Under the pieces are notes generated by a model that made no database searches, was not told the DNA's origin, and saw only the letters and a list, made by a program, of their open reading frames with translations. Source: Acidobacteriota bacterium (GTDB lineage: Bacteria > Acidobacteriota > Thermoanaerobaculia > UBA5066 > Gp7-AA6). From it: DNA of 64,000 bases. The stretch's first letter is position 1; every line of letters starts with the position of its first letter. The stretch spans positions 10,274 through 74,273 of the forward strand of contig JBLMXY010000058.1 of NCBI GenBank assembly GCA_050257975.1, read 5' to 3'. A program made the translations under genes and the position numbers. Below, one piece after another: positions 32,701-35,446 of this stretch.

Positions 32701-35446
32701 GGAAGACCGCGTTGACGAGATAGTCGTACGCGTCCTTCAGGGCGCCGGCGAGCGGCGTTCCCGGAGCCGTGACGATGACGTTCTTGGCGTTCTCCTCCAG
32801 GCGGTACTCGTTCATGTGCGTCGCCGTCGAGTCGTAGCTGACGAGCGAAGAGGCGAACCGCAGGAGCCGCTTGATGACCGGCAGGCTCGGCGTGTCGCTC
32901 GCGATCCAGTCGCGGGGGAACGGCACGACCGGCCAGTTGGCCTGGGCCGGAGGCGGCGCCGCGACCGGATACGGGTTGTAGCCGGAGGGAGCCGCGGAAG
33001 TGAACTTGCCGAAGCCGCCGCAGTCCTGCAGGTAGACATCGCAGGGGTTCGAGAGCGGCGGGAAGGGGCACGAGATCCCCGCGAAGGCGTCGTTGGGGAA
33101 CTGCTGGTCGCGCTGCATCGGCACGTCGCCGTCGAAGATCGCGGCGTACATGCCCTGGTTGTGGCGGTCGGTGACCGACGAGGGGTCCACGAGCCCGTCG
33201 GCGTCGTTGTCCGGGCTGGTCGGCTGCGAGCCCCAGGGCGGATTTCCCGTCAGGGAGTCGTCGGCCTGATAGATGCCGAGCCCGCCGCCAAGGTCGAAGA
33301 GGTCGGCCCGCCGGTAGCGGATCTGGACCGACTTCCGGAGCTCGAGCGTCGGGTCGGGGTCGGCCTGCGGGTCGTCGAAGCCGCGGTCGAGAAGCGGCAG
33401 GGGCGCCGCATCCGGCTCGCCGTCGCCGTTCAGATCGAGGAACGCGCAGAGCTTGGTCGAGTCGTAGGGGCACTGCCCGCAGAGCACGGTGTCGGTCGTC
33501 AGGCCGGCCGGGAGGCCGACGCACGGAGTGGCCGGCGGCGGAAGCGGCGGAGGCGGAGGCGCCATCGCGAGGAGGCCGCGAAGGGCCGGCGACAGCCAGT
33601 TGGCGATCGCGGGAAGGACGCTCCCGACCGGGAACCGGCCGAGCGGAAGAACGATCGGGGTCGGCGTCGGCGTCTTCGTCGGGAACGGCGTGGTCGTTTT
33701 CGACGGGGTCAACGTCGGCGTGATCGGGGTCGCGGTCCTCGTGGGCGACTTGGTCGGCGTGTTCGTCGGCGGGGGCGGCGTGTTGGTCCGCGTCCGTGTG
33801 TTCGTGGCGGTCGGCGGAACGGGGGTGTTGGTCCGCGTCCGTGTGTTGGACGGCGTGAACGTCCGCGTCCGCGTCGGCGTGTTCGTCGGCGGAGGCGGCG
33901 TGTTGGTCCGCGTGCGCGTGTTGGACGGCGTGAAAGTCCGCGTGCGCGTCGGCGTGTTGGACGGCGTGAAAGTCCGCGTCCGCGTCGGCGTGTTGGTCGC
34001 CGTGCGGGTGCGCGTCGGCGTGTTGGACGGCGTGAACGTCCGCGTCCGCGTCGGCGTGTTCGAGGCCGTGAAAGTCCGCGTCGCCGTCGGCGTGTTGGAC
34101 GGCGTGAACGTCCGCGTGAAGGTCGGCGTGTTGCTCGGAGTCGGCGTCCGCGTCGGCGTGTTGGTCGGCGTGCGCGTATTGGATGGCGTGAACGTGTTCG
34201 TCCGCGTGGGGGTCCGGGACGGCGTGAACGTCCGCGTCGCCGTCGGCGTGATCGACGGCGTGAACGTGCGCGTCCGCGTCGGCGTGTTGGTCCGCGTGTT
34301 CGTCCGCGTGCGGGTGTTGGACGGCGTGAACGTGCGCGTCCGCGTCGGCGTGTTGGACGGCGTGAACGTGCGCGTCGCCGTCGGGGTGATCGACGGGGTG
34401 AAGGTCTGCGTCCGCGTATTGGAAGGCGTCCGCGTGTTCGAGGGTGTGCGTGTGTTGGTGGCCGTCGCCGTGGCGGTCGGCGTCGGGGTCGAAGTCCGGG
34501 TGTTGGTCTGCGTCGGAGTCAGCGTCTTCGTGCTGGTCGGTGTCGGCGTATTCGAGGGCGTCGGGGAAATCGAGGGTGTGACCGTCGGCGTGGCCGGCGG
34601 GCCGTACTCGTCGACCCGCAAGAAGAGGTCCGGATCCCCGTAGTTTCCCGCAACCACCTGCATCCGCAGCTCGAAGCCCGGCTTGTTGGGGTTGCGATAG
34701 ACGACCAGGCCCTGATTCAGTCCCTTCGGGCCGAAGGCGCCGCGCCAGGTCCCCGGCTCCGGCGGATCGGGCTTGCCGCCAACGCCCGGCACGCCCACGG
34801 GCAGACCGTAGGGGAAGCGGATGTCCGCCACCTCTCCGGTCGACTGCGGGGGCTGCGCCTTGGCGTAGTTGTGCATGACCTTGTGGCCGAGCTGCAGGAA
34901 GCGCCCCTGCTGGATGTCGGGATACTCGTCCGGGTCGAACTCCGTCGAGATCGCGGCGCCGGACGGGTCGATCGAGTCGGCGAAGTAGAGCCACTCGAGG
35001 CCGCCGTTCTCGAGCAGCTGCCCAGCCGTCTGCGCGCCGCCGATCGGGTCGCCGAGCGGGCCGGTTGCCGCGGCGCCGAAGGTCTGGTTCGGGTTGCGGT
35101 AGTAGGCGAAGGACCAGTTGACGCCGACGGCGTTGCTCATCACCTGGCGCAGCACGCTCTTGGCGACGCCGATCTTGGAGCCCTCGACGTCGAAGGTCCC
35201 CTGCGGGTACAGGAAGTCGTCCATGTAGGCGGGCAGGCGGAACGAGTCGGAGAACTCGCTGTCCATCGAGTGGGAGGAGTCGAGGATGACGAGGACGTTG
35301 GTGTTGGCGCCGGCGTTGGCCTGAAGGAGCTGCCGGTCGTCGGGCCTTGCCGGCGCGGCGATGAGCATCGCCAGGAGCGAGGCGATCGCGGCCCGATGCC
35401 GGGTCACGAAGCCGAAGACGCCGCGGGAGCTTCCTGGATCGCGCAT
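29780..35446 (-). CDS. pilY1: giant PilY1-like type IV pilus tip-associated protein (vWA/MIDAS module, Thr/Pro tandem-repeat insert, C-terminal PilY1 beta-propeller)
   Basis: 1888 aa. Signal/[35 protein letters not shown] ... [12 protein letters not shown] ... [14 protein letters not shown]. PilY1 propeller signatures [25 protein letters not shown] and [17 protein letters not shown]-like TAGGAGTTGCCATG at the start. Sits in the position after pilX. Confidence 0.85.
33656..34597 (-). repeat. in-frame coding tandem repeat, 36-nt (12-codon) period, unit about [12 protein letters not shown], inside pilY1
   Basis: The plus strand shows GTCGGCGTGTTGGACGGCGTGAACGTCCGCGTCCGC reiterated imperfectly. 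Translation (aa ~284-597) is almost exclusively T/P/S/N/R/F. Confidence 0.9.

What the first reader, a model, noticed from the sequence alone, without database searches (positions are those of the whole stretch)
33656..34597. ~314-aa Thr/Pro/Asn/Arg tandem-repeat tract (36-nt period) inside pilY1
About two dozen imperfect copies of a 12-codon unit ([12 protein letters not shown] and variants such as [12 protein letters not shown] and [11 protein letters not shown]) form a low-complexity spacer made almost only of T, P, S, N, R and F. The period is a multiple of three, so repeat gain or loss keeps the frame. That makes it a plausible length-variable stalk that sets how far the tip adhesin projects. 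It is also a likely O-glycosylation substrate because of its Thr/Ser density. The Arg/Asn content is unusual compared with ordinary PT linkers. Such arrays are also classic assembly-collapse sites.
Basis: seen in the sequence. Interest (0 to 1): 0.6.

Follow-up and report, generated by a model that had tools for sequence, protein, structure and literature searches.

The report
Threonine-alternating loop in pilus-tip protein
The pilus-tip protein (PilY1) gene of an uncultured soil Acidobacteriota bacterium really carries a 314-residue floppy, positively charged stretch with threonine at every second position, but it is a loop inside the adhesion head, not a stalk.

Summary
Window 33656-34597 (minus strand) encodes aa 284-597 of an intact 1888-aa PilY1. 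The tract is 42% Thr and 19% Pro and has 116 consecutive x-(Thr/Ser) dipeptides. Its core repeats every 12 residues.

The tract is real and selected. About 35 Thermoanaerobaculia orthologs carry it at the same site, with lengths from about 45 to about 385 aa. One ortholog, P0065, has none. In five ortholog pairs, dN/dS is 0.07-0.10 at the Thr positions and 0.08-0.15 in the folded flanks. It is 0.37-0.61 at the intervening positions. Nearly all indels fall in the tract. The tract has no Asp, Glu, Gly or Cys and a net charge of +40, while the rest of the protein is -56.

The "stalk" reading is not supported. The MIDAS residues lie on both sides of the tract, and AlphaFold2 gives no structure for it. 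A short-tract ortholog folds as one body (pTM 0.78). The tract is therefore a closed loop inside the split vWA head.

O-glycosylation is plausible but untested.

Gene callers truncate 58 of 77 database homologs at the tract. This scan noted the same kind of tract twice before on other DNA (e1-4896442, e1-1234170).

The parts
29780..35446 (-). pilY1 gene, 1888 aa, intact open frame. The start codon is shared with orthologs.
   Evidence: PF05567 scores 66.9 bits and PDB 3HX6 matches at E = 3e-16. The orthologous frames in L005 and L007 start at the same position.
35267..35281 (-). MIDAS motif 1 (D56-S-S58-H-S60) of the vWA domain, on the N-terminal side of the tract.
   Evidence: S58 is at least 90% conserved in the 43-sequence alignment. 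It aligns with the DxSxS motif of homologs that have Pfam VWA or VWA_2 hits.
34598..35098 (-). Beta-rich module (aa 117-283) inserted in the vWA domain. It ends in the conserved V-D-E-Y-G-P-P anchor just before the tract.
   Evidence: AlphaFold2 predicts strands 150-282 with mostly pLDDT 70-93. The anchor is conserved in all orthologs.
33656..34597 (-). The (x-Thr)n tract, aa 284-597. It is 314 aa long, has net charge +40, and is predicted to be disordered.
33899..34594 (-). Unbroken run of 116 x-(Thr/Ser) dipeptides (aa 285-516).
33824..34402 (-). Core with the 12-residue (36-nt) super-period, with units of the [12 protein letters not shown] type (about aa 349-541).
33536..33649 (-). Conserved anchor after the tract ([30 protein letters not shown] followed by poly-Pro, aa 600-637). 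Many database gene calls wrongly start here.
32327..32887 (-). C-terminal part of the split vWA domain (about aa 854-1040). It contains GT897-P898 and VLVTD935G.
   Evidence: Foldseek hits on the ortholog model are almost all vWA folds.
29783..31534 (-). PilY1 beta-propeller and C-terminus (aa 1305-1888), including the DFDDDGYLD calcium-loop equivalent.
35455..38565 (-). Upstream minor-pilin genes: pilX (35455-36015), pilW (35999-37489) and an N-methyl pilin (37492-38565).
   Evidence: The same gene order is seen in L005 and L007.
33489..34643 (+). Spurious antisense Arg/Gly-rich ORF over the tract. Gene callers pick this kind of ORF in relatives.
   Evidence: In L005 and L007 the public annotation places an antisense gene on the tract, although one sense frame of 1919 or 1931 aa is open.

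Best explanation
The tract is a genuine coding, intrinsically disordered, polycationic (x-Thr)n segment. It is a Pro-Thr-box or mucin-like sequence in which Pro is partly replaced by Arg, Asn, Phe and Ala. It sits in an insertion of the vWA (MIDAS) head of a type IV pilus tip protein, PilY1, from an uncultured Thermoanaerobaculia (Acidobacteriota) bacterium.

**Shown**
- Both ends of the tract are held by the same folded head, so it forms a closed loop with a contour of about 100 nm. It is not a stalk in series with the pilus.
- It changes by in-frame gain and loss of dipeptide-multiple units.
- Selection keeps the alternating Thr/Ser and a restricted, non-acidic set of residues in between. 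It does not keep the order of the units or the exact length.

**Inferred**
- Function depends on a dense array of hydroxyls on a positively charged flexible chain.
- Most likely the loop is an O-glycosylated brush or lasso around the adhesive face of the pilus tip. It could shield that face, or it could make many weak contacts with negatively charged soil surfaces.
For: **The tract is real and coding.**
- The 1888-aa frame is intact.
- Synonymous divergence in the tract matches or exceeds that of the flanks, so it evolves as coding sequence in the sense frame.

**It is conserved in position.**
- All full-length orthologs carry it between the same two anchors.
- A maximum-likelihood tree places it throughout a 32-row clade (support 96/86). 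It is absent from the outgroup and from the basal P0011 and P0013.

**Selection acts on the Thr positions.** In five ortholog pairs dN/dS is:
- 0.07-0.10 at Thr/Ser positions,
- 0.08-0.15 in the flanks,
- 0.37-0.61 at the intervening X positions.

Nearly all indels fall in the tract. Only two small gaps lie in the flanks, both in one of the five pairs.

**Composition is constrained.**
- The tract has 0 Asp, Glu, Cys or Gly and a net charge of +40, against -56 for the folded rest.
- Orthologs with long tracts carry +11 to +42.

**It is predicted to be disordered.** AlphaFold2 gives pLDDT of about 30 and no secondary structure for aa 296-629, while the flanks score 70-96.

**It is a loop, not a stalk.**
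- MIDAS residues lie on both sides of it and are conserved.
- Homolog P0118 has Pfam VWA_2 positions 1-57 at aa 48-106 and VWA positions 103-170 at aa 586-682.
- The short-tract ortholog fragment gives pTM 0.78, with only its own tract disordered.
- Its Foldseek hits are almost all vWA folds.

**It matches a linker style of this lineage.** Seven other ORFs in the same genome carry (x-T)n tracts of 26-130 aa.

**Glycosylation capacity exists.** The genome has 19 PMT_2 hits and 4 Wzy_C hits.
Against: - No direct evidence exists for glycosylation or for any binding or shielding role.
- No glycosyltransferase gene is linked to the locus, and the PMT_2 and Wzy_C families are not specific.
- P0065 has lost the tract and P0052 keeps only about 45 aa, so the tract is not needed for folding or for basic PilY1 function.
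- I could not inspect model coordinates or PAE. The packing of the N-terminal and post-tract parts is therefore inferred from pTM and from the conserved motifs.
- The Foldseek E-values are weak (0.03-0.5).
- Alignments within a repeat are partly arbitrary. They tend to understate differences at all tract positions.
- The copy number in this particular assembly was not checked against reads.
Confidence: 0.72

Rival explanations
1. In-series stalk. The tract links an N-terminal adhesin domain to the rest of PilY1, and its length sets how far the adhesin projects from the pilus tip.
For: - The tract is long, extended-looking and variable in length.
- Pfam finds no vWA domain in either half of this protein.
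- Parts of the link between the vWA beta-1/beta-2 strands and the beta-rich module have low pLDDT.
Against: - The MIDAS residues are split across the tract and conserved on both sides.
- pTM is 0.78 for the 800-aa short-tract ortholog fragment. Two independent bodies on a tether should not give such a value.
- pTM is 0.59 for the 1200-aa piece, even though 28% of it is disordered.
Confidence: 0.12
2. Tolerated junk. The tract is a neutral expansion of simple sequence in a permissive surface loop, kept going by slippage and GC-rich codon bias, with no function of its own.
For: - X positions are relaxed (dN/dS 0.37-0.61), and length and unit order drift freely.
- The tract was lost or shortened in P0065 and P0052.
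- The same insertion site holds an unrelated 223-aa insert in P0011 and P0013.
Against: - Thr positions are as constrained as the folded domains (dN/dS 0.07-0.10).
- Acidic residues, Gly and Cys are excluded over about 300 residues in most orthologs.
- Asn and Phe, which use AT-rich codons, persist in a genome with 70% G+C.
- The tract is retained across a deep clade.
Confidence: 0.1
3. Assembly artefact. The repeat number in this MAG contig is collapsed or expanded relative to the real genome.
For: - The source is a short-read-style MAG of 238 contigs.
- Some relatives' contigs end in or next to the tract.
- Read mapping could not be done.
Against: - The longest exact repeat in the tract DNA is 43 nt, and copies are only 60-76% identical in register.
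- The nearest relative, L043 (95% identical in the flank), has 322 aa against 319, with a single 3-aa indel.
- Two pairs of separately deposited assemblies of orthologs have identical tracts: L025 versus L040, and L023 versus L044.
- G002 carries an intact 1885-aa frame with a 269-aa tract on a 4.28-Mb contig.
Confidence: 0.05
4. Structured Thr-ladder. The 12-residue units fold into a beta-solenoid with a flat TxT face, like insect antifreeze or ice-binding proteins, and bind a crystalline or carbohydrate surface.
For: The tract has strict i, i+2 Thr periodicity and a 12-residue super-period. This resembles the 12-residue TxT coils known from the Tenebrio antifreeze protein (general knowledge).
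Against: - AlphaFold2 gives pLDDT of about 30 and no strands.
- The tract is 19% Pro, including PxPP stretches.
- It has no Cys or Gly to close tight coils.
- Unit length is irregular (10, 12, 22, 25 and 28 residues) and differs among orthologs.
Confidence: 0.03

Closest known systems
PilY1 / PilC type IV pilus tip-associated proteins (P. aeruginosa PilY1, PDB 3HX6; Myxococcus PilY1 paralogs; Neisseria PilC)
   Same: - It has a C-terminal PilY1 beta-propeller with the calcium-loop motif.
- It has an N-terminal vWA-type head with MIDAS residues.
- The gene follows pilV-, pilW- and pilX-type minor-pilin genes.
   Different: - The vWA head is split by about 800 residues of insertions.
- One of those insertions is a 314-aa (x-Thr)n disordered loop.
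- Three full-text searches found no description of such a tract in a PilY1.
Pro-Thr boxes (PT linkers) of secreted actinobacterial glycoside hydrolases, for example the Cellulomonas fimi cellulases (general knowledge)
   Same: - Thr alternates at every second position.
- The chain is extended, Pro-rich and free of secondary structure.
- It occurs in exported proteins.
- Length is variable.
- It is a known O-glycosylation substrate type.
   Different: - Pro fills only 36% of the non-Thr positions here. Arg (22%), Asn (16%) and Phe (8%) fill much of the rest.
- The net charge is +40.
- It is about ten times longer than typical PT boxes.
- It lies inside a domain as a loop rather than between two domains.
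- The host is a diderm Acidobacteriota bacterium, and glycosylation is untested.
Serine-rich repeat glycoproteins (Fap1, GspB, PsrP) and Ser-Asp repeat adhesins (ClfA, Sdr) of Gram-positive cocci (general knowledge)
   Same: They have long dipeptide repeats with a hydroxy-amino acid at every second position in a surface adhesin. The length varies, and the composition rather than the sequence is conserved.
   Different: - The hydroxy residue here is Thr, not Ser.
- There is no LPXTG anchor.
- Linkage to an accessory Sec system or to GtfA/B was not examined.
- Those repeats are in-series stalks, whereas this one is a closed loop.
PgcA-type 'domains on a string' (Thr-Pro)n tethers of Geobacter and related exported proteins. 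This comparison comes from an earlier scan note, e1-3153039, which I did not check.
   Same: It is an alternating Thr-Pro tether in an exported protein of a diderm soil bacterium.
   Different: Those tethers join separate domains and are much shorter (tens of residues).

Membership tests
PilY1/PilC type IV pilus tip protein | C-terminal PilY1 beta-propeller domain (Pfam PF05567) above the curated cut-off | tested here: met
   The score is 66.9 bits against a cut-off of 28.1, starting at aa 1305. PDB 3HX6 matches at E = 3.3e-16, and the alignment includes the calcium-binding loop.
PilY1/PilC type IV pilus tip protein | Encoded in an operon with minor pilins (pilV, pilW, pilX) | tested here: met
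   PilX_N, PilW and N_methyl hits fall in the three genes directly upstream. The same gene order is seen in L005 and L007.
PilY1/PilC type IV pilus tip protein | N-terminal vWA domain with MIDAS residues (the subclass with a vWA head) | tested here: inconclusive
   - The motifs DSSHS (aa 56-60), GT897-P898 and VLVTD935G are present and conserved.
- Aligned homologs have Pfam VWA hits.
- Foldseek hits on the ortholog model are vWA folds, but with weak E-values of 0.03-0.5.
- Pfam finds no VWA in this protein itself.
Pro-Thr box / PT linker | Alternating (Pro-Thr)n composition | tested here: inconclusive
   Thr/Ser alternation is strict, with 116 consecutive dipeptides. Pro fills only 36% of the partner positions, and Arg, Asn, Phe and Ala fill the rest.
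Pro-Thr box / PT linker | Joins two independently folded domains | tested here: not met
   The tract lies between the two halves of one vWA head.
Pro-Thr box / PT linker | O-glycosylated on Thr | not testable with these tools
   The genome has 19 PMT_2 and 4 Wzy_C matches, none on the window's contig. These families are not specific to protein glycosylation.
Serine-rich repeat glycoprotein (SRRP) | (Ser-X)n repeats, an LPXTG anchor, and an accessory SecA2/Y2 system with GtfA/B | tested here: not met
   The repeat is (x-Thr)n. The protein ends in a PilY1 propeller with no LPXTG motif. The accessory Sec genes were not searched.
Phase-variable contingency locus (simple-sequence repeat) | Near-perfect tandem repeats whose gain or loss switches expression, with copy number differing between close strains | tested here: not met
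   - Copies are 60-76% identical, and the longest exact repeat is 43 nt.
- All spacings are multiples of 6, so the reading frame never shifts.
- The nearest relative, at dS of about 0.3, differs by one 3-aa indel.
TxT beta-solenoid (ice-binding-like) | A regular beta-solenoid fold built from the repeat units | tested here: not met
   AlphaFold2 gives pLDDT of about 30 and no strands across aa 296-629. The repeat units are irregular in length.

The most novel reading that the evidence does not exclude
The polycationic Thr loop is itself the working surface of the pilus tip. One version is a lasso with a contour of about 100 nm, glycosylated or bare, that catches negatively charged soil matter such as clay, humic material, exopolysaccharide or DNA through many weak contacts. 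The other version is a hidden length that is released when force pulls the split vWA head apart, making the head a mechanical fuse or sensor. Either version would be a new way of building adhesion or mechanosensing into PilY1.
Probability: 0.2. Interest if true: 0.65.

Novelty: new variant of a known kind. Interest (0 to 1): 0.42.

Why it matters
**For pilus biology.** PilY1 is the protein that type IV pili present to the outside world, and its vWA head is thought to sense surfaces and force. A whole clade of soil Acidobacteriota has placed a selected, positively charged Thr brush of 200-400 residues inside that head. This suggests a different way of touching surfaces in soil. It also offers a natural series of lengths, from none to about 385 aa, for experiments.

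**For annotation.** The tract breaks gene calling. 58 of 77 close database homologs lack the N-terminal 600 residues, and callers place a false antisense gene on the tract. Domain surveys of PilY1 in this phylum are therefore biased.

**For reading low-complexity sequence.** Comparing dN/dS at Thr positions with dN/dS at the positions between them is a simple, reusable way to show that a low-complexity tract is under selection.

Tried and rejected
- **First search of relatives.** The first genome search failed. It was repeated successfully with the C-terminal 1239 aa, after one attempt with a wrong frame.
- **Pfam on the two halves.** Pfam at E <= 10 on aa 1-283 and on two post-tract pieces returned nothing. 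The vWA assignment therefore rests on motifs, aligned homologs and fold search.
- **Foldseek on the 1200-aa model.** It gave only weak, high-rmsd hits. The 800-aa ortholog model gave clearer hits, though still weak.
- **N-glycosylation sequons.** Asn sits in the non-Thr phase, so N-x-(S/T) does not arise within the alternating register. This is seen directly in the sequence.
- **Antisense ORF as a real gene.** Rejected. In register, the third codon positions of the sense strand are the first positions of the antisense frame. They vary freely (dS 0.3-0.7).
- **Linked glycosyltransferase.** None was found in the operon. The genome-wide PMT_2 and Wzy_C hits are not specific.
- **Literature.** Searches for PilY1 with threonine-rich tracts, with vWA insertions, and for Thermoanaerobaculia pili found no prior description.
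- **Within-species length polymorphism.** This could not be tested. The closest sequence available is 95% identical in protein (L043).
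Full report

The gene lies on the minus strand. Window 29780-35446 is one open frame of 1888 aa, and nucleotides 33656-34597 are exactly codons 284-597.

- **Composition.** The segment is 41.6% Thr, 19.0% Pro, 11.4% Arg, 8.3% Asn, 7.0% Ser and 4.4% Phe.
- **DNA repeats.** Tandem Repeats Finder reports a 36-nt period with 16.2 copies and 67% matches, plus higher-order periods of 66, 75, 102 and 138 nt. 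The repeat finder gives 19 in-register copies whose spacings are all multiples of 6 nt.
- **Protein periodicity.** The dominant period is two residues. Identity is 0.42 at lag 2 and 0.03 at lag 1, and aa 285-516 are 116 consecutive x-(Thr/Ser) dipeptides. Among the non-Thr residues alone, lag 12 stands out at 0.43 against about 0.16.

The tract is therefore an (x-Thr)n sequence with a 12-residue super-period in its core. "Two dozen 12-codon units" overstates the regularity.

**2. What gene is it, and from what organism?**

- Pfam PF05567 (PilY1 beta-propeller) scores 66.9 bits against a cut-off of 28.1, starting at aa 1305.
- The only PDB sequence match is P. aeruginosa PilY1 (3HX6, E = 3e-16). 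The alignment includes the calcium-binding loop.
- The three genes directly upstream hit PilX_N, PilW and N_methyl. A sigma-54 response regulator follows downstream.
- The window belongs to a 4.16-Mb MAG of 238 contigs.
- Named relatives are "Thermoanaerobaculia bacterium" and "uncultured Acidobacteriota bacterium" MAGs.

**3. Is the tract shared, and does its length vary?**

Every full-length ortholog carries a Thr-alternating tract at the same place. It follows the conserved V-(D/E)-E-Y-G-P-P and precedes L-P[17 protein letters not shown].

| Group | Anchor-to-anchor tract length (aa) |
|---|---|
| This window | 319 |
| Same genus (G002, jgiA, G001, G011, G008, G006, jgiB, G005) | 269, 293, 310, 322, 349, 356, 358, 384 |
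| Other genera of the family | 198-325 |
| Database orthologs | about 45 (P0052) to about 380 (P0029) |
| P0065 | none |
| P0011, P0013 | an unrelated 223-aa insert at the same site |

A maximum-likelihood tree of the C-terminal parts places the tract throughout a 32-row clade (support 96/86). It is absent from the outgroup and from the basal pair P0011/P0013. Secondary loss or shortening occurred in P0065 and P0052. The root rests on one long outgroup branch, so the order of events is tentative.

**4. Is it under selection?**

I aligned five ortholog pairs codon by codon and split the sites into three classes.

| Site class | dN/dS |
|---|---|
| Folded flanks | 0.08-0.15 |
| Thr/Ser positions of the tract | 0.07-0.10 |
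| Intervening X positions | 0.37-0.61 |

- Synonymous divergence in the tract equals or exceeds that of the flanks.
- Gap runs fall almost only in the tract. There are 1 to 10 per pair there. The roughly 370 flank codons have none in four pairs and two small gaps in the fifth.
- The X positions use a narrow set of residues: Pro 36%, Arg 22%, Asn 16%, Phe 8% and Ala 7%.
- The tract has no Asp, Glu, Cys or Gly and a net charge of +40. The folded rest of the mature protein carries -56.
- Orthologs with long tracts carry +11 to +42 with 0-3 acidic residues. The short, more distant P0068 is the exception at -12.
- The unit T-F-T-P-S-N-T recurs in two separate subclades.

Two caveats apply. Thr positions were defined from one sequence of each pair. 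Alignment inside a repeat tends to understate differences.

**5. Stalk or loop?**

- **Motifs.** The vWA metal-site residues lie on both sides of the tract. D56-x-S58-x-S60 comes before it. G-T897-P898 and V-L-V-T-D935-G come after it. In a 43-sequence alignment S58 is at least 90% conserved, and P898 and D935 are invariant.
- **Homologs.** P0118 has Pfam VWA_2 positions 1-57 at aa 48-106 and VWA positions 103-170 at aa 586-682. In P0098 the matching Ser and Asp are only 189 residues apart.
- **Structure prediction for this protein.** AlphaFold2 on aa 1-1200 gives pLDDT of about 30 and no secondary structure for aa 296-629, confident flanks, and pTM 0.59.
- **Structure prediction for a short-tract ortholog.** The first 800 aa of P0052 give pLDDT 75 and pTM 0.78. 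Only its own 45-aa tract and the termini are disordered. That is hard to reconcile with two independent bodies on a tether.
- **Fold search.** The Foldseek hits for that model are almost all vWA folds (4fx5, vWF A1, BatB, ITIH1, factor B). They are weak, with E = 0.03-0.5 over about 150 columns.

I could not read contacts or PAE directly. The closed-loop topology is therefore a well-supported inference rather than a demonstration. If it holds, the tract cannot set the distance between the adhesin and the pilus.

**6. Could it be an assembly artefact?**

- The longest exact repeat in the tract DNA is 43 nt, and copies are 60-76% identical.
- The nearest relative is a separate 2.1-kb metagenome contig, 95% identical in the flank. 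It has 322 residues against 319, with one 3-aa indel.
- Two pairs of separately deposited assemblies of orthologs have identical tracts.
- G002 carries an intact frame with a 269-aa tract on a 4.28-Mb contig.
- Contig ends do fall in or next to the tract in two relatives. The region is therefore fragile, but nothing points to collapse here.

**7. Context in the genome**

- Seven other ORFs in the same MAG carry (x-Thr)n tracts of 26-130 aa. This is a linker style of the lineage, and PilY1 has by far the longest example.
- The genome has 19 PMT_2 and 4 Wzy_C matches, none on this contig. The capacity for periplasmic glycosylation exists, but nothing ties it to PilY1.

**8. Annotation hazard**

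Of 77 close database homologs, only 19 contain the N-terminal part. The other 58 begin at or after the end of the tract, several of them on contigs of 0.15-4 Mb. In L005 and L007 the public gene calls place an antisense ORF on the tract, although a single sense frame of 1919 or 1931 aa is open.

**9. Comparison with what is known**

The protein is a PilY1 family member. The tract behaves like a Pro-Thr box or a mucin-like segment, and like the dipeptide repeats of Gram-positive serine-rich adhesins. It differs in four ways: its residue set, its strong positive charge, its length, and its position as a loop inside a domain.

Three full-text searches found no description of such a tract in PilY1. 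This scan had already noted the same kind of tract in two other Acidobacteriota genomes (e1-4896442 and e1-1234170). My tests on this DNA reach the same topology independently. They add the position-class selection test, the charge analysis, the length series and the gene-call census.

**10. Verdict**

The tract is real, conserved and selected. It is a new variant of a known kind of element. The stalk interpretation is replaced by a loop interpretation. Glycosylation and function remain open.

Noticed in passing
L005:5001-5966 (-), L007:4875-6053 (-); window 33489-34643 (+): Public gene calls in relatives place an antisense Arg/Gly-rich ORF on the tract and start pilY1 after it. 58 of 77 close database homologs lack the N-terminal ~600 residues, some of them on contigs of 0.15-4 Mb.
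   Followed up: yes
G000 contigs C194:2644-6741, C162:5129-7282, C104:10067-11416, C209:1-1640, C50:4-2658, C133:43-1566, C12:19112-20047: Seven other ORFs of the same MAG carry alternating (x-Thr)n tracts of 26-130 aa, mostly with Pro, Ala or Arg as partners. Several sit on short contigs or run off contig ends. The domains of these proteins were not identified.
   Followed up: partly
G000 genome-wide (none on C58): This 4.2-Mb genome has 19 matches to the GT-C family PMT_2 (15 above the cut-off) and 4 matches to Wzy_C. That is a large set of periplasmic glycosyl- or lipid-transferases whose substrates are unknown.
   Followed up: no
window 28839-29783 (-): A 314-aa signal-peptide protein overlaps the pilY1 stop codon (ATGA). 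It is conserved after pilY1 in L005 and L007 but absent after the short-tract ortholog in L055. It has only a sub-threshold TRAP_beta-like hit (E = 0.002) and Ala/Pro-rich low-complexity parts.
   Followed up: partly
P0011 and P0013, aa ~275-460 (database orthologs): At exactly the site where other orthologs carry the Thr tract, these two carry an unrelated ~223-aa insert that looks folded. The site appears to be an insertion hot spot in the vWA head.
   Followed up: no
G000:C10:6690-9431 (-): The same genome has a second PilY1 paralog (36% identity over the C-terminal part). The genome-wide scan found no (x-Thr)n tract in it.
   Followed up: partly
G007:C7:547471-551167, G010:C2:271515-275249 (=L006), G009:C3:191772-195595: In three MAGs with large contigs, the orthologous pilY1 is split into several frames or contains in-frame TGA codons. 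These are most likely long-read sequencing errors rather than real pseudogenes.
   Followed up: no
tracts of the window, G006, G008, P0040, P0048, G019 and others: The heptapeptide T-F-T-P-S-N-T recurs many times in the tracts of two separate subclades but not in the clades between them. It is either an ancestral unit kept by selection or a convergent one, and it could be a recognition motif.
   Followed up: partly
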